Part shown: positions 7,759 to 44,304 of the stretch, in pieces
Numbering within the stretch: position 1 is the stretch's first letter
Layout: the number at the start of each line of letters is the position of its first letter
From: Candidatus Thorarchaeota archaeon
GTDB taxonomy: Archaea; Asgardarchaeota; Thorarchaeia; Thorarchaeales; Thorarchaeaceae
Assembly (NCBI GenBank): GCA_046482545.1
Contig: JAWOEX010000037.1
Span: 2,030 to 66,029 of the forward strand
DNA: 64,000 nt
Reading direction: 5' to 3'
Notes under the pieces: generated by a model
Databases searched by the model: none
What the model was told of the DNA's origin: nothing
The model's input: the letters and a program-made list of their open reading frames with translations, nothing else
Made by a program: the position numbers and the translations under genes

Positions 7759-8544
7759 CTATAGCACCGGACACGTGTTTCTGAACCAGTCAATAACATG
7801 ATTGACTGTCTCTGTGTACGCCTCGCGGGAAGACAAGCCATGGTCAGCATCATCTACAATGGTCAATGACTTAGGTTCTCCAGCTTGTTGGTAGAGAGAT
7901 TTAACCCCATCAGGAGAGATGAGAGTATCGGCAGCGCCGGTGATTATGAAGAGAGGGCGTGGGGATATTTCTTCTATTTCATGCTTTGGATTGTATGCTT
8001 TAGTATCCCTCACCATATCGTCCATTATCTGTTCACGAATCTCTGGACTATCCAACCCATGTACAGTAGATGGATTCTGTTCTCCTATACGCTCCAATTC
8101 GGAATCTAGCATCGGCAATTTCGCGAACCAGAGGGTATCATAGACTGGCGCCCTAAGGCACACGGCATCGATTCGGTTGTCACGAGCTGCTGTACATACT
8201 GCTATTGCACCACCATAGCTTGCTCCGTATACTCCCACCCAAGAGGCGATAACAAAGTTCGACTCTAACAAGTGATTGATCGCGGATTTTGCGTCCTCTA
8301 TTTCACCTGCCAGGCTGAACAGGCCTGAGCTGCGTCTGAATCCTCTGAAGTCAAATGTAAGAACAGCAAAACCCGCTCTAGCCAAAGAAGATGCAATACC
8401 GTGAACCTGATTGTCTCCACCTGGAAAGCCGTGAAACTTACATATGCCGGGGAATGGCCCATCTGTCTTGGGAATAACAAAATCGCCGCGGATTATTTCA
8501 TCTCCTGATATGAACTCAGTTGGTAGTATCTGTATATCAGCCAT
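7759..8544 (-). CDS. Alpha/beta hydrolase (esterase/peptidase S9-like)
   Basis: HGFPG oxyanion loop, GASYGG nucleophile elbow, TGAAD, ADHG. Confidence 0.85.
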   Translation of the reverse strand: MADIQILPTEFISGDEIIRGDFVIPKTDGPFPGICKFHGFPGGDNQVHGIASSLARAGFAVLTFDFRGFRRSSGLFSLAGEIEDAKSAINHLLESNFVIASWVGVYGASYGGAIAVCTAARDNRIDAVCLRAPVYDTLWFAKLPMLDSELERIGEQNPSTVHGLDSPEIREQIMDDMVRDTKAYNPKHEIEEISPRPLFIITGAADTLISPDGVKSLYQQAGEPKSLTIVDDADHGLSSREAYTETVNHVIDWFRNTCPVL

Positions 8545-8683
8545 TGCGAAGAGCCACGTTTGACTATTAGGAGAGGTGGCAGGTCATAACTCTGTTGCGT
8601 GTTAGGTTCTATGTCTTAGACTCATAGACGGTATCACCATAATTATATCCCAGAAGTAGGCAACCCGTTCTAACCCCAAGAAG

Positions 8684-9802
8684 ATGAAAACCATGGTAGA
8701 CGATTGTAAAGCAGCTGTCGTAGTAGAGCCAAATCATCCCATCGAAATTCAGCATTTCGAAGTTCCCGAACTTATACCTGGTTCAGTGTTGCTGAAAGTT
8801 GACCGTGCAGGTGTTTGCGGTACTGATGTACACCTGTGGCATGGTCAACTATCAGGAGTTCCATACCCGCTCATCATGGGTCACGAAGTCGCTGGAACAG
8901 TGGAAGAATTGGGTTCGGATGATATCAGGGACCTCAACGGAAGAAAATTGGAAGTGGGTGACCGCATCACATTCCATGATGTCACCGATACATGCTATTC
9001 ATGCTACTACTGCTTGATTGCAAAGGCACCAACAAAATGTCCCAATCGAGAAGTATATGGCATTACACGAGATCCGAAAAAGAAGCCATATCTTTTGGGG
9101 GGATACAGCGAATACGTCTACCTCACCCCCGGTACCAAAATAATTAGTATTCCAGACCATGTCTCCTTCGACGGGATTATTTCGGCAGGATGTGCTTTGC
9201 CTACAGCTACACATGCAGTAAGTCGTAGCCCGCTTCGCCATGGGAGCCATGTGGCAGTCCAAGGAGCAGGACCTGTTGGCCTCATGATTATGATGTTGGC
9301 GAAAATATCTGGAGCAGCTACCATAACAGCTATTGACCAAGCGGAAAATAGGCTTGAGTTAGCGAAAGATTTTGCTGCCGATTACTCATTGAACATTTCA
9401 GATACGTCACTTGATGTTCGCAAGGAATTTCTTGACGAACTGTCTGATGGGCATGGGCCCGATATTGTCTATGAAGCGACAGGAAATGCCGCCGCTGTTC
9501 CAGAAGGGATAGAGCTTGTGAGGAATGGTGGAGCATATACAATTTGCGGACAATACACAGACAGTGGAAATGTCGAAATTAACCCACACCTGATGAATCG
9601 CAAGCACCTTGATATTCGCACAGTCTGGGGCTCCGAAACAGTGCATGTTTACAAAGCAGTCAAGACGATTGCAGAAAACTGGAATCAATTCGATTTCGAG
9701 AAGCTTGTAACACATAAGTATTCCTTAGAGGATTCCCAAGATGCACTTGAGGCGGTAGAAGAGCAGATTCCAATAAAAGCTGTGTTAGCTCCGCACTCCT
9801 GA
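8684..9802 (+). CDS. Zinc-dependent alcohol dehydrogenase (MDR family)
   Basis: GVCGTDVH, GHE, CYSCYYC..C structural zinc site, GAGPVG Rossmann motif. Confidence 0.9.
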   Translation: MKTMVDDCKAAVVVEPNHPIEIQHFEVPELIPGSVLLKVDRAGVCGTDVHLWHGQLSGVPYPLIMGHEVAGTVEELGSDDIRDLNGRKLEVGDRITFHDVTDTCYSCYYCLIAKAPTKCPNREVYGITRDPKKKPYLLGGYSEYVYLTPGTKIISIPDHVSFDGIISAGCALPTATHAVSRSPLRHGSHVAVQGAGPVGLMIMMLAKISGAATITAIDQAENRLELAKDFAADYSLNISDTSLDVRKEFLDELSDGHGPDIVYEATGNAAAVPEGIELVRNGGAYTICGQYTDSGNVEINPHLMNRKHLDIRTVWGSETVHVYKAVKTIAENWNQFDFEKLVTHKYSLEDSQDALEAVEEQIPIKAVLAPHS

Positions 9803-36403: not shown

Positions 36404-37603
36404 TTACTGCTCTTCTTGGAACTTCTCGATTTGTTTGATGATTTCCGGAACGACCTCGAATAGATCGCCCACAATGCCGAAGTCAGCGACTCCGAAAATT
36501 GGTGCCTCAGGATCTTTGTTGACGGCAACTATAATGTCTGAACTTCTCATGCCCTGAATGTGCTGAATCTGGCCTGAAATCCCGAAAGCGAAGTAGAGTT
36601 TGGGACAGATGGTCCGCCCGGACTGCCCGACCTGCTGAGTGGGCGGAAGCCAGCCGGCGTCGACGATAGGACGTGAGCCTCCCACAGCCGCGTCGAGCAA
36701 GTTGGCAAGTTTCTTGGGTAAGTCGAGGTTAGAGGGGTCTTTGATACCCCGGCCGCTGCATACAACAATGTCTGCTTCTTCGACGGATTTCATCCCTTCG
36801 ACCTTTTCGATGACAGTATCAAGAACTTCGGTTCTGATTTGAGATTTGTCAATAGTAATGTCGACGATCTCGATTTCACCCTCACGTGATTCGTCTGGTT
36901 CAGCCACTTTGAACACATTGGGGCGAACCGTGGCCATCTGTGGGCGAGTGTATGGGGTGATGATCTCAGCCATGACGTTCCCACCGAATGCGGGACGGGT
37001 TTGGACGAGCTGGCCTTCATCATCTATATCGAGACCCGTACAGTCCGCGGTAAGGCCGAGGCCGAGTCTGGCAGCAACACGGGGAGCAAGGTCTCTGCCA
37101 TTGCTTGTTGCACCGTAGAGCACGATTGAAGGATCTCTAGAGGATAGGAGAGAAGATACGGCTATCGTGTATGCATCAGTGGTGTAGTCAGCGTAGACTT
37201 CGTCATCTACAACCAGCACTTTGTCAGCACCCTGGTATATCAGCGACTGGGCAATGCCTTCGATATCATGCCCGATGAGAATCGCAGTTAGGTCTTCATC
37301 AAGTTTGTCAGCAAGCGCCCTTCCCTTTGTTACGAGCTCATTGGCCACGCTGCGTAGCCTTCCCTCGTTGGTCTCACAGACCACCCATACACCTTCGAAA
37401 CCTTCCAAGGCCTCCTCATCTATAGCCTTCCGCTCGATTTCGATGGCATCAACAGGACAGACTTCCTCACATGAACCACAAAGAACACACTTGGTCATGT
37501 CAAAGGATACTTTCTTGCCATCTTCCTTAATCGCTCCAAAATTGCAGGCTTTAAGACACAGTCCGCACCCGGTACAGGTATCTCTATCGTAGTTCAAACC
37601 CAT
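36404..37603 (-). CDS. etfA: Electron transfer flavoprotein alpha subunit with an N-terminal 2x[4Fe-4S] ferredoxin domain
   Basis: CTGCGLCLKAC, CVLCGSCEEVCP, TGLTADC, RPAFGGN, QVGQSG, GISGQIQH. Confidence 0.92.
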   Translation of the reverse strand: MGLNYDRDTCTGCGLCLKACNFGAIKEDGKKVSFDMTKCVLCGSCEEVCPVDAIEIERKAIDEEALEGFEGVWVVCETNEGRLRSVANELVTKGRALADKLDEDLTAILIGHDIEGIAQSLIYQGADKVLVVDDEVYADYTTDAYTIAVSSLLSSRDPSIVLYGATSNGRDLAPRVAARLGLGLTADCTGLDIDDEGQLVQTRPAFGGNVMAEIITPYTRPQMATVRPNVFKVAEPDESREGEIEIVDITIDKSQIRTEVLDTVIEKVEGMKSVEEADIVVCSGRGIKDPSNLDLPKKLANLLDAAVGGSRPIVDAGWLPPTQQVGQSGRTICPKLYFAFGISGQIQHIQGMRSSDIIVAVNKDPEAPIFGVADFGIVGDLFEVVPEIIKQIEKFQEEQ

Positions 37604-38401
37604 TCATATCGCCCCCTTCTTTGTGAGGAACTCCACGAGTTGCTTGGCTCCTTCCTCAGGAGTTTCCGGTTCTATTTTGATGCCGCCTTTCTTTTTCTCA
37701 GGCGCGAATACCTTTCTAACCTGGGTAGGTGACCCCTTCAAGCCCACTTCGTTCTCATCAACCCCAAGGTCCTCAAATCTGACCTCTTCAAGGGGTTTCT
37801 TCTTAGCCTTCATGATACCCATGATATTAGGCAAGCGTGGTTCATTAAGACCCTTTGTGGCTGTGAGCAGCAAGGGCATTTTTGACTTCACAACTTCGTA
37901 ACCTTCATCAGTTTCCCTATGAACGATGACATGCTTCTCGTCATCAGACAGCTTGAGATCGCGAACATAGCATATCTGCGGGATACCCAGCAATTCTGCA
38001 ATTTCAGGACCAACCTGTGCAGTATCACCATCAATGGCCTGCTTGCCACAAATCACAAGATCATAATCCATCTTCTTGATTTGTTTAGCCAAAGTGTATG
38101 ACGTTGCCCAGGTGTCAGCCCCTGCAAAAGCAGAATCGGTAAGGAGAACTGCCTTGTCACCGCCCATCGCCAATGCCTTGTAAAGTGCATCCTTCGCCTG
38201 TGGAGGCCCCATCGTGAGAATGGTAACCTCACCACCATATTCTTCCTTTAGCTGTATGGCAGCTTCAACAGCGAATTCATCGAAGGGGTTTAGAATCGAT
38301 GGCACGCCTTCACGCACAAGCGTGTTTGTCTCTGGGTCAATCTTGACCTCTGCTACCTCGGGAACTTGTTTGATTGGCACTATGATTTTCATTCGGACCA
38401 T
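37604..38401 (-). CDS. etfB: Electron transfer flavoprotein beta subunit
   Basis: KQVP, NPFDEFAVE, GADTWAT, GKQAIDGDTAQVGP, GSPTQV. Confidence 0.92.
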   Translation of the reverse strand: MVRMKIIVPIKQVPEVAEVKIDPETNTLVREGVPSILNPFDEFAVEAAIQLKEEYGGEVTILTMGPPQAKDALYKALAMGGDKAVLLTDSAFAGADTWATSYTLAKQIKKMDYDLVICGKQAIDGDTAQVGPEIAELLGIPQICYVRDLKLSDDEKHVIVHRETDEGYEVVKSKMPLLLTATKGLNEPRLPNIMGIMKAKKKPLEEVRFEDLGVDENEVGLKGSPTQVRKVFAPEKKKGGIKIEPETPEEGAKQLVEFLTKKGAI

Positions 38402-38600
38402 TCCCTATCGCCGAAGGGGATGATTCTACATTATAAGGAATATGTCCCCGGTAATCTGTGGGCATCACTTTATTCCATGTACCCGCGAGCCCTTTTACGC
38501 AATCCTTTTATTGACTGTGCCGCTCTTTCCGAGTAGTTCCATAATGATAACCTCTCAGAGTTCGGCATACTTGAGAGGTAGACTCAAGGTAGTGAACGGA

Positions 38601-38960
38601 ATGCAGAAAGAGAAAGTAATCGGTGCATTGATTTTCATAGTTGCTATCCTAGTGCTCATCTACTACACATGGGCATTACCGCTATTGCAAAACCCATGGT
38701 TCGGACCCTCACTCAAGACTTGGGTGGAGAACACGTTCGGAGGGGGTATCCTTCAGGATATCTTTGCTCCCGACCCGATGTTTCTCATTATCTTGCCTGT
38801 GTGGGCCGCAGCTGTTCTTATCATGGTCATTGGAGCCTGGATTGGCTGGACTATGATGACAACTCCTGCTCCAGAACCATTGGAAGATTTTGATTTCGAT
38901 GAAGAAGAAATAGCAGAGCCAGAGATAGAAGAAGAGACTGAAGAAGCCGAAGAAGAATAA
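38601..38960 (+). CDS. Small two-TM protein resembling eukaryotic DPM2, with an acidic tail
   Basis: EKVIGALIFIVAILVLIYYTW and FAPDPMFLIILPVWAAAVLIMVIGAWIGWTMMTT parallel the DPM2 two-helix pattern as I recall it; start at ATG 38601. Confidence 0.6.
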   Translation: MQKEKVIGALIFIVAILVLIYYTWALPLLQNPWFGPSLKTWVENTFGGGILQDIFAPDPMFLIILPVWAAAVLIMVIGAWIGWTMMTTPAPEPLEDFDFDEEEIAEPEIEEETEEAEEE

Positions 38961-38997
38961 TCGTCTAGTTCTCTTCACCTTATCTCTACAGTATAAG

Positions 38998-39014
38998 GGC
39001 CGGGCAATCCGGCC
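38998..39014. terminator. GC hairpin followed by a pyrimidine run, between convergent genes
   Basis: GGCCGG-GCAAT-CCGGCC-TTTCCCATTTCTATTTT. Confidence 0.5.
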
Positions 39015-39163
39015 TTTCCCATTTCTATTTTCCTGTCTTTATGAAATATTACTGACTATGACTGATGCGGCTAGAGAATTCACCGAAGGTTCAGCTATTT
39101 TCGTTTTTGCCACCCCGTGCAAAAAGGGCAAGATGAAACGGTACACAACGGTAGGGCAGTTAC

Positions 39164-40528
39164 TTACTCAAGGCTGTCGAGTGCCTTGAGAATTATACTC
39201 TTGCCTTTCTCGGCCAGCTCCTCAGCCTTTTTCTCAGATTCACTTTCAGCAAAACAGCGCCAGATAGGTTCGGTTCCCGAAGGTCTCATGAGAACCCATC
39301 CCTGATCGTATATCAATTTCACTCCGTCTATTGTGATTCGTTCCTGGTCCTTCGTTAGTTCAAGTAGAGGATCAAGAATAGCGAGTTTCTTGTCTTGCGG
39401 TACATCTACTGACAGTTTCACGCTATTATACTGGGGTAGCTCAGCAACAAGTTCAGAAAGGGTCTTCTTCTCAATAGACATGATTTCTGCCATTTTGGCC
39501 GCGGTCATAGCGCCATCACGTACAGCCTGATGTGCAGGATAGAATACACCCCCATTTTCTTCGCCGCCCATTTCAGCATCGATTTCCAACATGCGATGCG
39601 ATACATCAACGCTGCCAACCACGGTCCAGTCGATTGTCGCACCTGCCTCGTGCGCAACATCCTCAATCAGGCGACCACTGCTCACAGGAGTTACCAAAGT
39701 CGGGTTCTCATATTCAGCCAAGGAATAAGAGGCCATGATAGCAAATGATTGGTCTCCCCAGAGAATGTTTCCCTTCTCATCAACGAATGTTGCACGATCT
39801 GCATCGCCGTCATGAGCCACACCAAAATCAGCACCTACAGCTTTCACAGCCTCTGCAAGCATTTCCAAATTCTCAGGAGTTGGTTCTGGATTTCTGCCGG
39901 GAAACAGTCCATCCAGCTGAGCATTCAAAGAGATGACCTTGCAACCAAGCTGGCGAAGCAGTATGGGTGTTGCCAACGATCCGACGCTATTTGCTCCATC
40001 GACAACCACTTTGAGATTCCTTCTCTTCACAGCATCTACATCCACATGTGACTTGATTGCCTGTAGGTAGTCTTCAATGGCAGTATCGTACTTCCGCGTG
40101 CTACCGATTTCCCTCCAGTCAGCAATATCAAAATCCTCATCGAAATAGACTTTCTCCATTTCATCCTCCATCTCTCTAGAAATCTCAACACCATTGGGCC
40201 CCATGACTTTCAATCCGTTGAATTGTGGAGGATTGTGAGATGCAGTAATCATTATTCCACCAGTGCAACCAAGTTTTGGAACGATGAACTGAAGGGTTGG
40301 TGTAGGAACAAATCCGACATCTACGACGGATTTTCCAGTAGAAAGCAGACCAGATGTCACTGCATGACGCAGCATTTCACCACCCATTCTACAATCGCGT
40401 CCCACAGCTACTTCCTGCCCTTCCAGAACTGTTCCAACTGTTCGGCCGATGTTAAGAACAATCTCCGGAGTTATCTCACGATTGATGATTCCACGAACAC
40501 CGTTTGTCCCAAAGAGCTTCTTCCCCAT
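39164..40528 (-). CDS. Alpha-D-phosphohexomutase (phosphomannomutase/phosphoglucomutase/GlmM family)
   Basis: LFGTNGVRG, TASHNP (phospho-Ser), DGDADR, GEENGG, RPSGTEP; start at ATG 40528. Confidence 0.92.
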   Translation of the reverse strand: MGKKLFGTNGVRGIINREITPEIVLNIGRTVGTVLEGQEVAVGRDCRMGGEMLRHAVTSGLLSTGKSVVDVGFVPTPTLQFIVPKLGCTGGIMITASHNPPQFNGLKVMGPNGVEISREMEDEMEKVYFDEDFDIADWREIGSTRKYDTAIEDYLQAIKSHVDVDAVKRRNLKVVVDGANSVGSLATPILLRQLGCKVISLNAQLDGLFPGRNPEPTPENLEMLAEAVKAVGADFGVAHDGDADRATFVDEKGNILWGDQSFAIMASYSLAEYENPTLVTPVSSGRLIEDVAHEAGATIDWTVVGSVDVSHRMLEIDAEMGGEENGGVFYPAHQAVRDGAMTAAKMAEIMSIEKKTLSELVAELPQYNSVKLSVDVPQDKKLAILDPLLELTKDQERITIDGVKLIYDQGWVLMRPSGTEPIWRCFAESESEKKAEELAEKGKSIILKALDSLE

Positions 40529-40604
40529 GGTGAATCGTACCCAGCTTTGTGCAACTAGGCCCAGACTTAAGAGTGTCGCTATCGTGTGTTTGAAGGGGCT
40601 CCAT

Positions 40605-41135
40605 ATGTGCTTTTTCAAGAAGGAGAAGGACAAAAAATACGAGAAAGCTGCCCAACTGATGGCCAATGAGGAATATGAAAAGGCAGTTCCACTGCTGAAA
40701 GAAGTTCTTGATGAGAATCCCGAGCACACGAATGCGCTTACCTCGATGGGTGTCGCCTTGATATCCATGGATATCAACCTGGACCTCGAAGACCCGAATA
40801 TCAAGCAAGGGCTTGAGTATCTGAATCAAGCTGCTAAAATCGACCCCGAAGATCCTGTACCTGTATTCAATAAAGCAGTCCTATTGCGGAAACTGGAGAG
40901 GCCGGAGGAGGCAATCAATGCCTTCAAACAGGTCCTTGAAATTGAAAAGCAACAACCACTTGCCCTGCTTCATATCGCAGAAATCAACTACGAACTCGAG
41001 CGCTGGGAAACCGCCATTAATTATGCCCGACAGGCCATCATCAGAGATCCAGGGTTCAAGGAAGCTTTGACATGGGTACCCGAAGCCATGGAGAAAGCCG
41101 GATTACTTGATGAAAAGAATACAGGACAGCAGTAA
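40605..41135 (+). CDS. Tetratricopeptide repeat protein
   Basis: Repeated A/Y/L..L...P helix pairs (YEKAVPLLKEVLDENP; EEAINAFKQVLEIEK). Confidence 0.8.
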   Translation: MCFFKKEKDKKYEKAAQLMANEEYEKAVPLLKEVLDENPEHTNALTSMGVALISMDINLDLEDPNIKQGLEYLNQAAKIDPEDPVPVFNKAVLLRKLERPEEAINAFKQVLEIEKQQPLALLHIAEINYELERWETAINYARQAIIRDPGFKEALTWVPEAMEKAGLLDEKNTGQQ

Positions 41136-41300
41136 GGATTCATAGTTTGTAATCTTGTGTTTTTCAGGAGTGAATCAAGAATGGTTTTTCTGTTCTGGAC
41201 CGTTCTTCAACAGCTGCTGCAAAACCCTTAAATTCACACTTTCAAGGCTCGACATTGAACTACTACCATCAGTATATTCCCCATATCCTAGGGTGATTAC

Positions 41301-41714
41301 ATGTCTCAACGTGGCAGAGAACCAACATATCGTGGCTATAAAATCAAAGAGCTGGTCGAGATGAGTATGGATGACCTCATCGAACTCCTCCCCGCTCGGC
41401 GCAGACGAACACTCAAACGAGGTCTTCCCCCGCGTCAGAAGAAACTACTTAAGAAAGTAAGGGAGGCGCGCAAACAGCTCAAGAAAGGGAAGGCTCCAGT
41501 TATCCGGACCCACTCCCGGGACATGGTCATTCTGCCCGAGATGGTAGATCTCACCTTTGGCGTCCACGACGGATATCGTTTTCAGGATGTCAAAATCACT
41601 CCGCTTATGATTGGACATTGTTTGGGAGAGTTCGCTATAACAAACAAGCAGGTTAAACATGGTAGCCCCGGTATCGGAGCTACGAAGAGCTCTGCCTACG
41701 TACCGCTCAAGTAG
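41301..41714 (+). CDS. rps19: 30S ribosomal protein uS19 (archaeal S19P), not in an r-protein operon
   Basis: [57 protein letters not shown]. Confidence 0.95.
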
Positions 41715-42399: not shown

Positions 42400-44304
42400 T
42401 CAGCCAAGTTGCGAAGGTTGGATATAGGCCCCATATTCTTCTCGGGCTTCGAGTAAGCGTTTCTTCTGTTCTTTGAGTCGCTGATAGAGGTTTTTTGGTG
42501 CATCAGGCACAGTGTCTCTATAGCTGTTTGAAACACGCTCAATCTTGGCCAGAAGCTCGGGAATCCTGAAAGTGAATTGTTCCACGTACTCTTCATGAGA
42601 GTAATCTTTGTCAAGCTCTTCTTTGAAAAGAGTCTTCAAATCCTCGTAGTAAGGGAGATAGCCAGTCGGGCCACGAAGAGCGTCAACTTCGCCATGTATT
42701 CTGCGATCAATCCATTGGAGCCACACGCGCTTATCCTGCTTTGCATTCATGTATTCACCATCCTCATTCTTCAGGAAATAATTCACAGCGAAAATGTCAG
42801 GGGGGGAATCCACTTTCTGGCCAAAGTCAAGATGGTTCTGTATGTATTGGCCAAGGGGAATTGACACGAAATCCAAGTTGGAGAAAGGTTGCAGTTTCCT
42901 TACACCGCTACGACCCAAAGTAGCAGCGGTAGTCTCTGATTCTAGGCTGGCCCCCATGGTGATGACTCCATGTTCCCAGCTGAGGGATTGCTGAACAGGA
43001 ACCCATGTATCGCTATCACGCCCACCGTAGATGATGCCACCAACTCTAACGCCCAGTGGTTTATCCAATGCCTCATCTTTGTTTGGCAGACTTTCGAGGC
43101 TCACAGTGTATCGGGCATTCTTGTGAGAAGGAAGAATTTCGTTGCCGTCCGCATCGACCTTACCTTTAAACCACTGCCCAGAATGATTGATGCCATGATC
43201 AGGAGTTTCTCTCCCATCTCCAAGCCAGTACGGCTCACCTTTGTAGATCAGCACGTTTGTGAAAATCACAGGCTCATCGGATTGAAGGATATTCCAGATT
43301 AGTGGGTCATCCTTTTTGTTTACGGATCGTATAATCCCAAAGATGCCGTGTTCAACATTCACCCCTCGTACGGTATCGTCAATCGGTCTGAGATAGGCAA
43401 TATCATCACCAACAATCGTGCTACCCTTCACCATAGAGGTGCTTGTCTTCCCGCATCCTGAAGGGAATGCTCCAGTAAGGTATGTCTTCCTGTCGTTGGG
43501 ACCATGTACAGCCATCAGGAACATGTGTTCGGCAAGCCAGCCTTCCCGGTTCGCCTTTCGTATGGCCAGTCTCAATGCAAGTTTCTTGAGACCAATGGTA
43601 TTTCCCGCATATTGGGTGTTCACACTGTAAACGGTATTCTCTTTGTAATCAATCGAGACGCCGCGTTTGTCCCAGTTCACACTGATAGCATGAGCAAGTT
43701 TGCCGGATGAATGAAGCATCCAGAATATTTCTGCATCGTCAGGCAGTTTCTTGAAAAATTCGTAACCCTGTCGATACAGCAAGTCCTCACTATGTGCCAC
43801 ATAGAAGGAATCTGTAAGCTGAACACATGGAATCGAGAATGGGGAATCCACCGGACCAAGACAGAAGAAGCGCACTATCAGCTTTTTGTTATTCATGCTG
43901 TTCTTGAGGCGCTTCCTGACCAAGTCTAGTCCTTTCTTCCTATCCATCTGTGCCAGCTGGTCACCTAGGGTTTCTCCTTTAGGAACCAAATAGCGAGTGT
44001 GTTCCTTGTCACGGGCTTGGTCATAAAAGCCATCGAAATGTACAGTATGATTGGGATTCGCAAGTGGGGTTTCCTCACCATGGGCTATTGCACTTTTTCG
44101 CACGTATTCTATGTCTTCTTCTGCATCACTGCAGACGAAAACCTCCAGCGGGTGACACAGCCTAATAGCCTTCGCAACAAAATCATGGATACGTGTGTTA
44201 GGTATCGCTAAAAGCTTCTTGAAGTCAGTATCGTTGAGGGCCCTTTCGAGAATTGAAATTGTTTCACTCATGTAGTTTGCCTTCCGAGTGGATTCCACTA
44301 CCAT
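42400..44304 (-). CDS. pckG: GTP-dependent phosphoenolpyruvate carboxykinase (archaeal type)
   Basis: NTQYAGN..GLKK, WLAEHM, AFPSGCGKTS, VGDDIA, HKNARYT, IIYGGR, FAVNYF. Confidence 0.92.
   Translation of the reverse strand: MVVESTRKANYMSETISILERALNDTDFKKLLAIPNTRIHDFVAKAIRLCHPLEVFVCSDAEEDIEYVRKSAIAHGEETPLANPNHTVHFDGFYDQARDKEHTRYLVPKGETLGDQLAQMDRKKGLDLVRKRLKNSMNNKKLIVRFFCLGPVDSPFSIPCVQLTDSFYVAHSEDLLYRQGYEFFKKLPDDAEIFWMLHSSGKLAHAISVNWDKRGVSIDYKENTVYSVNTQYAGNTIGLKKLALRLAIRKANREGWLAEHMFLMAVHGPNDRKTYLTGAFPSGCGKTSTSMVKGSTIVGDDIAYLRPIDDTVRGVNVEHGIFGIIRSVNKKDDPLIWNILQSDEPVIFTNVLIYKGEPYWLGDGRETPDHGINHSGQWFKGKVDADGNEILPSHKNARYTVSLESLPNKDEALDKPLGVRVGGIIYGGRDSDTWVPVQQSLSWEHGVITMGASLESETTAATLGRSGVRKLQPFSNLDFVSIPLGQYIQNHLDFGQKVDSPPDIFAVNYFLKNEDGEYMNAKQDKRVWLQWIDRRIHGEVDALRGPTGYLPYYEDLKTLFKEELDKDYSHEEYVEQFTFRIPELLAKIERVSNSYRDTVPDAPKNLYQRLKEQKKRLLEAREEYGAYIQPSQLG

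What the first reader, a model, noticed from the sequence alone, without database searches (positions are those of the whole stretch)
38601..40528. DPM2-like protein convergent with a phosphomannomutase-family gene
Seen: 119 aa with K.IG....A.L...YYTW, a loop, F.P....I.LP.......IG.WIG.TM and an acidic tail. Established (from memory): human DPM2, a subunit of Dol-P-Man synthase and of the GPI-GlcNAc transferase, has DQVVG..V...IFTYYT.W and FLP..YA..IP......VG.FI..VM. Inference: an archaeal homologue of a eukaryotic ER glycosylation subunit, next to an enzyme that can supply mannose-1-phosphate. The genes are convergent, so the linkage may be coincidental.
Basis: partly seen in the sequence, partly recalled or inferred. 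Interest (0 to 1): 0.65.

Follow-up and report, generated by a model that had tools for sequence, protein, structure and literature searches.

The report
Archaeal DPM2/PIG-P-like membrane hairpin protein
A 119-residue, two-helix membrane protein of a Thorarchaeote is a true relative of DPM2 and PIG-P, the small subunits that assist lipid-linked sugar transferases in the eukaryotic ER; its family occurs in most Asgard and Thermoproteota genomes and its genes tend to lie beside sugar-activating enzymes, but the partner enzyme is still unknown.

Summary
Window 38601-38960(+) encodes a 119-aa protein with two TM helices and an acidic tail. It lies tail-to-tail with a 454-aa phosphohexomutase at 39164-40528(-).

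Homology to DPM2 is real. Pfam DPM2 scores 24.7 bits, just under the 27.3 cut-off, and several archaeal relatives pass it. A profile-profile match to mammalian DPM2 covers residues 4-79 of 84 (97% probability, E 5e-11). Shuffled controls score 22 or less against 54.

The protein is one member of a large family. It was found in 262 of 301 Asgard and 219 of 251 Thermoproteota genomes. The family carries an invariant WIGWTMxTTPxPxP(L/I)E motif after TM2, which DPM2 lacks. Databases often label its members "transcriptional regulator".

The neighbouring mutase scores best as archaeal GlmM, but it is one of three paralogs, so its sugar specificity is open.

The linkage looks meaningful. In Thorarchaeota the mutase is the usual neighbour. 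In other lineages a sugar-1-phosphate nucleotidyltransferase lies within 1 kb in 15 of 81 loci.

This genome has no DPM3, PIG-C or PIG-A-specific domain, and its single GT2 has its own TM helices. The protein therefore cannot work exactly as DPM2 or PIG-P does. An Asgard origin of this Pfam family is already tabulated in Kay et al. 2025.

The parts
38601..38960 (+). DPM2/PIG-P-like protein of 119 aa. Short N-terminus MQKEK, TM1 about residues 6-30 with the YYTW motif, a loop with two short helices, TM2 about residues 59-87, the invariant WIGWTMxTTPAPEPLE motif, and an acidic tail.
   Evidence: Translation. Pfam DPM2 E 2.9e-5. hhalign against DPM2 gives 97% probability. The AF2 model has pLDDT 82.7 with helices at 3-30, 35-46, 50-55 and 59-87. 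The gene is single-copy in this genome. RNA contigs at 100% identity cover it.
38402..38600 (.). Divergent intergenic region between etfB(-) and the DPM2-like gene(+). It presumably holds both promoters. The RNA contig starts at 38565, 36 nt before the ATG.
   Evidence: ORF map, sequence, RNA contig 38565-39154 with adapter at its start. The promoter role is inferred.
38961..39163 (.). Convergent intergenic spacer of 203 nt. It contains a GGCCGG...CCGGCC inverted repeat at about 38998-39015, followed by a T-rich stretch.
   Evidence: Read directly from the sequence. The terminator scan did not flag it, so its role as a terminator is only inferred.
39164..40528 (-). alpha-D-phosphohexomutase of 454 aa. 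The best model is archaeal phosphoglucosamine mutase (GlmM). It is one of three paralogs in the genome.
   Evidence: Pfam PGM_PMM_I to IV. TIGR03990 scores 572.8 bits against a cut-off of 439. Paralogs lie at C11:19087-20466 and C28:34143-35552. It is the conserved neighbour in Thorarchaeota.
36404..38401 (-). etfB (37604-38401) and etfA with an N-terminal ferredoxin-like Cys-rich part (36404-37603). This is the conserved divergent upstream neighbour in Thorarchaeota and is not functionally tied to the finding.
   Evidence: ORF translations. Synteny clusters 4 and 6 occur in 27-29 loci. The names come from reading the sequences and were not checked by a profile search.
40449..41714 (+). A TPR-like protein (ORF 40449-41135) followed by ribosomal protein uS19 (41301-41714). 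In six Thorarchaeota loci that lack the mutase, these genes directly follow the DPM2-like gene.
   Evidence: ORF list. Synteny clusters 1 and 2. The names come from reading the sequences.

Best explanation
The gene encodes an archaeal member of the DPM2/PIG-P superfamily. The product is a small helical hairpin in the cytoplasmic membrane with no catalytic domain. I propose that it acts as an accessory subunit: it binds and stabilises, or positions, an enzyme of lipid-linked sugar synthesis at the inner face of the membrane. The hairpin, with the conserved G8, Y21/Y22 and P66, would contact the membrane-embedded part of a polyprenyl-phosphate or lipid glycosyltransferase, as DPM2 TM1 does for DPM synthase. 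The invariant juxtamembrane WIGWTMxTTPxPxP(L/I)E motif and the acidic or charged tail would form a cytoplasmic docking site for a soluble partner. The most likely soluble partner is the enzyme chain that makes the nucleotide sugar (phosphohexomutase, then sugar-1-phosphate nucleotidyltransferase).

Shown: homology, architecture, expression, near-universal distribution in Asgard and Thermoproteota, and genomic association with sugar-activating genes.

Inferred: the physical partners, the topology (N- and C-termini inside), and which sugar or lipid is involved.
For: Homology:
- Pfam DPM2 scores 24.7 bits, E 2.9e-5.
- 21 of 27 relatives hit DPM2 (best 1.4e-13) and 11 of 27 hit PIG-P.
- Relatives P0111, P0110, P0123, P0129, P0120 and P0159 pass the DPM2 cut-off. 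P0120 and P0123 pass the PIG-P cut-off, and their PIG-P matches run past TM2.
- hhalign gives 97.1% probability and E 5e-11 over DPM2 residues 4-79. The Thermoproteota branch alone gives 91.9%. Shuffle controls score 22 or less against 54.

Conserved functional positions:
- Human DPM2 F21 and Y23 are needed for association with DPM1. Y23C, G58D and G66E are pathogenic (PMC10154465).
- Y23, Y24, P54, G66 and G10 align with Y21, Y22, P66, G78 and G8 of this protein.

Structure: the AF2 model shows two long helices with a structured loop and a disordered tail.

Housekeeping character:
- Found in 262 of 301 Asgard genomes and 84 of 90 high-quality ones.
- Found in 219 of 251 Thermoproteota genomes.
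- Single-copy in this genome.
- Present in four of four metatranscriptomes examined.

Gene context:
- A phosphohexomutase lies within 1 kb in 19 of 34 Thorarchaeota loci.
- In 81 other loci, sugar-activation and glycan genes reach 1.4 per 10 kb within 1 kb, against 0.33-0.36 per 10 kb at 1-7 kb. Fifteen of those near genes are NTP_transferases.
- The NTP_transferases occur in tandem, divergent and convergent arrangements.
- The Helarchaeota locus L052 has a flippase, two GT4 genes, two copies of the hairpin gene, and a PGI/PMI.
- Hermodarchaeota loci have a GMPPB-like transferase, a UDP-GlcNAc 2-epimerase and GT4 genes.
- One Thermoproteota genome has a GT2 directly upstream on the same strand whose best PDB match is Dol-P-Man synthase.
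- In this genome the only GT2, of the ArnC/GtrB/AglJ type, sits in a cluster directly after an NTP_transferase.
Against: - No glycosyltransferase is a conserved neighbour. The GT2 adjacency in G452 is not kept in relatives of the same order.
- The partners known from eukaryotes are missing here: no DPM3, no PIG-C and no PIGA domain. The sole GT2 has its own two TM helices, so it does not need an anchor.
- The best-conserved part of the family, the post-TM2 motif and tail, has no counterpart in DPM2.
- Some members carry C-terminal HhH domains. Many are annotated as transcriptional regulators. Both point to roles outside glycosylation.
- In Bathyarchaeia the tightest neighbour is adenosylhomocysteinase.
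- The seed proteins for the distance analysis were picked from neighbours, which biases it somewhat. Many loci are also phylogenetically related.
- The window's own protein stays below both Pfam cut-offs.
Confidence: 0.55

Rival explanations
1. The hairpin is a general-purpose membrane tether. It is related by descent to DPM2/PIG-P, but in archaea it anchors assorted cytoplasmic partners through its charged tail. In some lineages the partners are nucleic-acid-binding domains. It would have no dedicated role in glycosylation. A membrane-associated regulator or anti-regulator would be one version of this.
For: - Members are fused to HhH_5 or DUF4332-like C-terminal domains: P0115, P0141, P0183, P0190, P0196 and P0239.
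- NCBI, JGI and UniRef label Thermoproteota members 'transcriptional regulator' or 'HTH DNA binding domain'.
- Synteny outside single lineages is weak.
- The family is near-universal even in this genome, which has only one GT2 and three GT4 genes.
Against: - The 90-120-aa members have no room for an HTH domain. No NCBIfam model supports the regulator name.
- Sugar-activation genes, above all NTP_transferase, peak sharply next to the gene in several independent arrangements.
- The fused forms are a small minority of the 150 best representatives.
Confidence: 0.27
2. It is a strict functional orthologue of DPM2 or PIG-P. On this reading it is a subunit of a DPM1/DPM3-type Dol-P-Man synthase or of a GPI-GlcNAc-transferase-like complex, fed with mannose-1-phosphate by the neighbouring mutase.
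For: - Full-length profile match to DPM2.
- Relatives pass the DPM2 and PIG-P cut-offs.
- The TM1 tyrosines implicated in DPM1 binding are conserved.
- The neighbours belong to the hexose-phosphate to NDP-hexose route. They include GMPPB-like enzymes and a PGI/PMI in other Asgard lineages.
- Lombard 2016 proposes a proteoarchaeal origin of Dpm1.
Against: - The genome search finds no DPM3, PIG-C or PIGA domain.
- The only GT2 is an ArnC/GtrB-type enzyme with its own TM helices, not a soluble DPM1.
- The mutase scores best as GlmM and has two paralogs.
- The conserved C-terminal motif is absent from DPM2.
Confidence: 0.1
3. The resemblance is convergence between two hydrophobic hairpins, and the ORF has no evolutionary link to DPM2/PIG-P.
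For: - Short TM proteins give inflated profile scores.
- The window's protein is below the Pfam cut-off.
- The PDB sequence search and Foldseek gave nothing usable.
Against: - Segment-preserving shuffles keep the composition and topology of the DPM2 alignment, yet score 13.5 +/- 2.8 against 54 for the real alignment.
- Relatives reach 51 bits on Pfam DPM2.
- The same polar and Gly/Pro/Tyr positions line up.
- An independent study placed Asgard sequences in the PF07297 tree.
Confidence: 0.03

Closest known systems
DPM2 (Pfam PF07297), the regulatory subunit of mammalian Dol-P-Man synthase and a component of GPI-GlcNAc transferase
   Same: Small two-TM hairpin with no catalytic domain. Full-length profile-profile match (DPM2 residues 4-79). 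Shared N-terminal (D/E)(Q/K)xxG, the YYT(x)W motif in TM1, and the Pro and Gly positions in TM2.
   Different: The archaeal protein is longer (119 against 84 aa). It has a 28-residue loop with two short helices. It has an invariant WIGWTMxTTPxPxP(L/I)E motif and an acidic tail where DPM2 has a short basic tail. The genome lacks DPM3 and a TM-less DPM1. The window's protein scores 24.7 bits against a cut-off of 27.3.
PIG-P / yeast Gpi19 (Pfam PF08510), an essential subunit of GPI-GlcNAc transferase
   Same: Same hairpin. In Asgard relatives the PIG-P profile match continues beyond TM2 to about position 100 of 121, so a conserved segment after TM2 is a shared trait. Two relatives pass the PIG-P cut-off.
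   Different: The window's protein scores only 11.9 bits (cut-off 39.3). The genome has no PIG-C and no PIGA-specific domain, so there is no GPI-GnT-like complex to belong to.
TM hairpins of type-III Dol-P-Man synthase from Pyrococcus furiosus (PDB 5MLZ)
   Same: Gandini et al. 2017 report that TMH1 and TMH3 of this enzyme resemble DPM2, and that its two TM dimers are topologically like DPM2 plus DPM3. That would be a fused form of the same idea.
   Different: HMM searches of the PDB with the archaeal profile or the DPM2 profile found no similarity to 5MLZ. Foldseek also found none. In this window the hairpin is a separate gene.
DPM3 (Pfam PF08285), the membrane tether of DPM1
   Same: By analogy only. 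It is a small two-TM protein whose cytoplasmic C-terminal helix docks a soluble enzyme, which is the role proposed here for the charged tail.
   Different: There is no sequence relationship. PF08285 gives only a chance-level hit elsewhere in the genome.

Membership tests
DPM2 (PF07297) | Score at or above the Pfam gathering cut-off (27.3 bits) | tested here: not met
   P0001 scores 24.7 bits, E 2.9e-5. Archaeal relatives do pass: P0111 51.3, P0110 37.1, P0123 35.0, P0129 33.7, P0120 32.6 and P0159 30.6 bits.
DPM2 (PF07297) | Full-length profile-profile similarity to bona fide DPM2, above composition and topology controls | tested here: met
   hhalign gives 97.1% probability and E 5e-11 over 76 columns. 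Controls score 21.7 or less against 54.
DPM2 (PF07297) | Two-TM hairpin with conserved Gly10, Tyr23/Tyr24, Pro54 and Gly66 | tested here: met
   The aligned residues are G8, Y21, Y22, P66 and G78. The AF2 model has helices at 3-30 and 59-87. The functional importance of these positions in human DPM2 comes from PMC10154465.
DPM2 (PF07297) | Works with DPM3 and a TM-less catalytic DPM1 | tested here: not met
   No DPM3 in the genome. The only GT2 found is of the ArnC/GtrB type with two C-terminal TM helices. Physical association itself was not testable.
PIG-P (PF08510) | Score at or above the Pfam gathering cut-off (39.3 bits) | tested here: not met
   P0001 scores 11.9 bits. Asgard relatives P0120 (39.8) and P0123 (40.8) pass.
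PIG-P (PF08510) | Subunit of a GPI-GlcNAc transferase together with PIG-A and PIG-C | tested here: not met
   No match to PF06432 (GPI2/PIG-C) or PF08288 (PIGA domain) in the 98.9%-complete genome. Generic GT4 genes are present.
DPM2/PIG-P superfamily | Physical binding to a lipid-directed glycosyltransferase | not testable with these tools
Only gene context could be examined.
alpha-D-phosphohexomutase (the neighbouring gene) | Four PGM/PMM domains, with the TASHNP phosphoserine loop | tested here: met
   PF02878, PF02879, PF02880 and PF00408 are all above cut-off. 'ITASHNPP' is present in the translation.
Archaeal GlmM (TIGR03990) versus phosphomannomutase | Substrate specificity (GlcN-6-P versus Man-6-P or Glc-6-P) | tested here: inconclusive
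   The neighbour scores 572.8 bits against a cut-off of 439. Two paralogs in the genome also score best on the same model, at 525.3 and 400.7 bits, so the model does not separate specificities.

The most novel reading that the evidence does not exclude
The family is the free-standing prokaryotic ancestor of both DPM2 and PIG-P. It would work as the membrane organiser of a sugar-activation assembly. Its invariant TTPxPxP(L/I)E motif and charged tail would dock the soluble phosphohexomutase and sugar-1-phosphate nucleotidyltransferase at the membrane. Its hairpin would pack against the TM helices of the polyprenyl-phosphate glycosyltransferase, so the nucleotide sugar is made where the lipid acceptor sits. 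On this reading eukaryotes kept only the hairpin: DPM2 lost the tail, and DPM3 took over the docking role. The widespread 'transcriptional regulator' label on a core Asgard/TACK gene would then be wrong.
Probability: 0.15. Interest if true: 0.7.

Novelty: new variant of a known kind. Interest (0 to 1): 0.5.

Why it matters
DPM2 and PIG-P are poorly understood small subunits of two essential ER machines, Dol-P-Man synthase and GPI-GlcNAc transferase. No solved structure contains DPM2.

This protein shows that they descend from a hairpin protein that is almost universal in Asgard and Thermoproteota archaea. That protein exists without DPM3, PIG-A or PIG-C. The ancestral job of the fold can therefore be studied in simple, partly cultivable organisms such as Thermofilum, Infirmifilum, Desulfurococcales and Sulfolobales relatives.

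It adds one more piece to the archaeal roots of ER glycosylation. It gives functional context to the bare entry 'PF07297: Asgard origin' in Kay et al. 2025. It also flags a probably wrong annotation that has spread over thousands of database entries.

The gain is incremental. The homology was already implicit in Pfam-based work, and the mechanism is not yet shown.

Tried and rejected
1. PDB sequence searches with the archaeal profiles A1 and A3, human DPM2 and the DPM2 profile gave no relevant chain. No DPM2 or PIG-P structure is deposited, and 5MLZ was not hit.
2. Foldseek of the AF2 model against the PDB gave zero matches. A bare hairpin carries too little signal.
3. DPM3, PIG-C and the PIGA domain were searched in the genome and are absent.
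4. I looked for a conserved glycosyltransferase neighbour. A DPMS-like GT2 lies directly upstream in G452. Its orthologues in the same order lie elsewhere in their genomes, so this was rejected as a conserved operon.
5. I tried to learn the mutase's specificity from NCBIfam. All three paralogs hit the same GlmM model.
6. I tried to measure the family's spread in Euryarchaeota from the MSBL1 member. Its genome is not held, so that question stays open.
7. NCBIfam offers no model behind the 'transcriptional regulator' name.
8. The sigma-70 promoter and terminator scan gave nothing relevant, and it is not designed for archaea.
9. A tree of DPM2, PIG-P and the archaeal proteins was not attempted. 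About 70 alignable, mostly hydrophobic columns cannot resolve it.
Full report
**What is there**

The window comes from a Thorarchaeota (Asgard) genome of 3.05 Mb that is 98.9% complete. Window 38601-38960(+) reads as a 119-aa protein. It has a short MQKEK N-terminus and a hydrophobic helix ending in IYYTW. A 28-residue loop follows, then a second hydrophobic helix. After that come the string WIGWTMMTTPAPEPLEDFDFDEEE and an acidic tail.

The AF2 model built on 27 relatives has a mean pLDDT of 82.7. It shows helices at 3-30, 35-46, 50-55 and 59-87 and a disordered tail.

The longest ORF would start at 38442. Two observations favour the ATG at 38601 instead. All homologues begin at the MGKEK position. 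A metatranscriptome contig starts at 38565, directly after adapter sequence.

RNA contigs at 100% identity cover the gene in four of four salt-lake metatranscriptomes examined. Contigs have no strand, and such libraries can contain DNA. The gene is single-copy in this genome.

It lies tail-to-tail with a 454-aa phosphohexomutase at 39164-40528(-), 203 nt away. It is divergent from an etfBA pair.

**Is it related to DPM2?**

Yes.
- Pfam DPM2 (PF07297) matches at 24.7 bits, E 2.9e-5. This is just under the curated cut-off of 27.3.
- Of 27 relatives scanned, 21 match DPM2 (best E 1.4e-13) and 11 match PIG-P.
- Six relatives pass the DPM2 cut-off (P0111 reaches 51.3 bits). Two Asgard relatives pass the PIG-P cut-off.
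- I took real mammalian DPM2 sequences and ran a profile-profile comparison. It gave 97.1% probability and E 5e-11 over residues 4-79 of the 84-residue DPM2.

TM proteins can score well by composition alone, so I ran controls.
- A reversed DPM2 alignment and 30 full column shuffles reached a score of 18.7 at most.
- Sixty shuffles restricted to each TM or loop segment keep the topology and composition. They gave 13.5 +/- 2.8, maximum 21.7, against 54 for the real alignment.

The aligned columns include positions known to matter in human DPM2. F21 and Y23 are needed for association with DPM1, and Y23C, G58D and G66E cause DPM2-CDG (PMC10154465). Y23, Y24, P54, G66 and G10 align with Y21, Y22, P66, G78 and G8 of this protein.

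No solved structure contains DPM2. Foldseek of the model found nothing.

- A search of 1.8 billion representative proteins with the family profile found 418 clusters at E 0.001 or better.
- In genomes, the profile matched 262 of 301 Asgardarchaeota (84 of 90 high-quality genomes, 65 of 70 genera).
- It also matched 219 of 251 Thermoproteota. Named examples include Bathyarchaeia, Nitrososphaerota, Thermofilum, Infirmifilum, Desulfurococcales and Sulfolobales MAGs, and an MSBL1 archaeon.
- The Thermoproteota branch has a very short loop and an extremely conserved ending, WIGYTLATTPPPKPIEEIEKEIEEELKKLE. It still aligns to DPM2 at 91.9% probability.

The best-conserved part of the whole family is not the hairpin. 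It is the juxtamembrane motif WIGWTMxTTPxPxP(L/I)E, which DPM2 lacks. In Asgard relatives the PIG-P profile match continues through this region. A conserved segment after TM2 is therefore a trait shared with PIG-P.

Public databases often call the Thermoproteota members 'transcriptional regulator' or 'HTH DNA binding domain'. No NCBIfam model supports that name, and a 93-aa protein with two TM helices has no room for an HTH. A minority of members are fused to C-terminal HhH-type domains.

**The neighbour**

The mutase has all four PGM/PMM domains. Its best curated model is archaeal GlmM, at 572.8 bits against a cut-off of 439. The genome has two more paralogs that also score best on that model, at 525.3 and 400.7 bits. 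The model therefore does not resolve which paralog handles glucosamine, mannose or glucose phosphates. 'Phosphomannomutase family' is correct. 'Supplies mannose-1-phosphate' is not shown.

**Is the linkage meaningful?**

In 35 Thorarchaeota-type loci the order is etfA, etfB(-) | hairpin(+) | mutase(-) | TPR(+), uS19(+). The mutase is present in 29 of them. In six loci it is absent and the TPR gene follows directly. That pattern alone could be inherited gene order.

The neighbours in other lineages are more telling.
- Four Hermodarchaeota-like loci have a GMPPB-like NTP_transferase with an LbH domain about 155 nt upstream and divergent. In two loci a UDP-GlcNAc 2-epimerase accompanies the hairpin gene, and GT4 genes lie nearby.
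- About ten Bathyarchaeia loci have a 252-aa NTP_transferase directly downstream on the same strand. Adenosylhomocysteinase is the conserved upstream gene.
- A Helarchaeota locus has a Wzx-like flippase, two GT4 genes, two convergent copies of the hairpin gene, a PGI/PMI-type isomerase and then uS19.
- Among 40 further Thermoproteota loci, four have an adjacent NTP_transferase, in divergent, convergent or tandem order.

I also counted by distance. In the 81 non-Thorarchaeota loci, sugar-activation and glycan genes reach 1.4 per 10 kb within 1 kb of the hairpin gene. At 1-7 kb the figure is 0.33-0.36 per 10 kb. Fifteen of the 22 near genes are NTP_transferases.

There are caveats. The seed proteins came from neighbours, many loci are related, and no whole-genome background was available.

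Even so, the mutase and the nucleotidyltransferase are consecutive steps of the same route: hexose-6-P to hexose-1-P to NDP-hexose. Different lineages place one or the other beside this gene. I read that as functional linkage to nucleotide-sugar supply.

**What argues against a strict DPM2 or PIG-P role**

- The genome has no DPM3, no PIG-C and no PIGA-specific domain.
- Only one GT2 was detected. It is an ArnC/GtrB/AglJ-type polyprenyl-phosphate glycosyltransferase with its own two TM helices. It lies in a cluster with a sugar dehydrogenase, an NTP_transferase and an epimerase on another contig.
- One Thermoproteota genome (G452) has a GT2 directly upstream on the same strand, 63 nt away. Its best PDB match is the Pyrococcus Dol-P-Man synthase. 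Orthologues in the same order are not adjacent to the hairpin gene, so this is not a conserved operon.
- Gandini et al. 2017 noted a resemblance between the TM helices of that synthase and DPM2. HMM searches could not reproduce it.

**Explanation and odds**

I am about 90% sure of the homology.

For function, I put about 55% on an accessory, non-catalytic membrane subunit of lipid-linked sugar synthesis. In this model the hairpin contacts a membrane glycosyltransferase, and the conserved tail docks a soluble partner from the nucleotide-sugar route.

The main rival, at about 27%, is a general membrane tether whose partners vary. In some lineages they would include nucleic-acid-binding domains, which would fit the HhH fusions and the regulator labels.

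A strict DPM2 or PIG-P role gets about 10%. Chance resemblance gets about 3%.

**Novelty**

Kay et al. (Nature 2025, PMC12872463) date a pre-LECA duplication that gave DPM2 and PIGP. Their supplement lists the PF07297 tree as of Asgard origin. The existence of Asgard homologues is therefore already in the literature at table level.

Other full-text searches (Asgard with PIGP, PF07297, PIG-P with DPM2 and archaea) found no description of the archaeal proteins. I found no account of their near-universal spread in Asgard and Thermoproteota, their conserved tail, their gene context or their likely misannotation.

I class it as a new variant of a known kind, of moderate interest.

Noticed in passing
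Thermoproteota members, e.g. L094:7001-7282 (Thermofilum pendens protein P0392): Thousands of 90-110-aa two-TM members of this family are labelled 'transcriptional regulator', 'predicted DNA-binding transcriptional regulator' or 'HTH DNA binding domain' in NCBI, JGI and UniRef. They contain no HTH, and no NCBIfam model backs the name. This looks like a propagated misannotation.
   Followed up: partly
Proteins P0115, P0141, P0183, P0190, P0196, P0239 (locus L085:3503-3910 for P0115): Some family members carry a C-terminal HhH_5 or DUF4332-like domain after the conserved TTPxPEP motif and an acidic linker. That makes a membrane-tethered HhH module. Whether it faces the cytoplasm or the outside (as in ComEA) is unknown.
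   Followed up: partly
L052:3714-10087 (Helarchaeota): Two paralogous hairpin genes lie tail-to-tail at 7986-8312(+) and 8437-8718(-). They are flanked by a Wzx-like flippase, two GT4 glycosyltransferases and a PGI/PMI-type isomerase, followed by uS19. As in Thorarchaeota, the locus sits just upstream of the ribosomal protein cluster.
   Followed up: partly
Own genome, contig C16:18091-25943 (outside the window): The only GT2 detected in this 98.9%-complete genome is of the ArnC/GtrB/AglJ type. It sits in a minus-strand run after a UDP-sugar dehydrogenase-like gene and an NTP_transferase-LbH gene. An epimerase-like gene and a 667-aa polytopic membrane protein lie next to it. This is probably the organism's main lipid-linked glycan cluster.
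   Followed up: partly
Own genome C11:19087-20466 and C28:34143-35552, plus window 39164-40528: Three phosphohexomutase paralogs all score best on the 'archaeal GlmM' equivalog model. Two are above its cut-off, so the model over-calls GlmM in this lineage. The C11 paralog lies about 1.3 kb from a GT4 gene (C11:16605-17798).
   Followed up: partly
window 36404-38401 (-): An etfB-etfA pair in which EtfA carries an N-terminal Cys-rich, 2x[4Fe-4S]-ferredoxin-like extension (CxxCxxCxxxC motifs). The pair is conserved as the divergent neighbour throughout Thorarchaeota.
   Followed up: no
window 42400-44304 (-): A 634-aa ORF that reads like a GTP-dependent phosphoenolpyruvate carboxykinase. This comes from reading the sequence only.
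   Followed up: no
Bathyarchaeia loci, e.g. L049:6672-7928 with the hairpin gene 60-80 nt downstream: In about 29 Bathyarchaeia loci, adenosylhomocysteinase (TIGR00936, 670 bits) lies directly upstream of the hairpin gene on the same strand. The pairing is tight and unexplained, and it does not fit the glycosylation reading.
   Followed up: partly
L099, L107, L118, L122 (Thermoproteota), genes next to the hairpin gene: A tandem pair of roughly 155-aa proteins with no Pfam match lies directly beside the hairpin gene in four genomes, together with two further conserved small genes.
   Followed up: no
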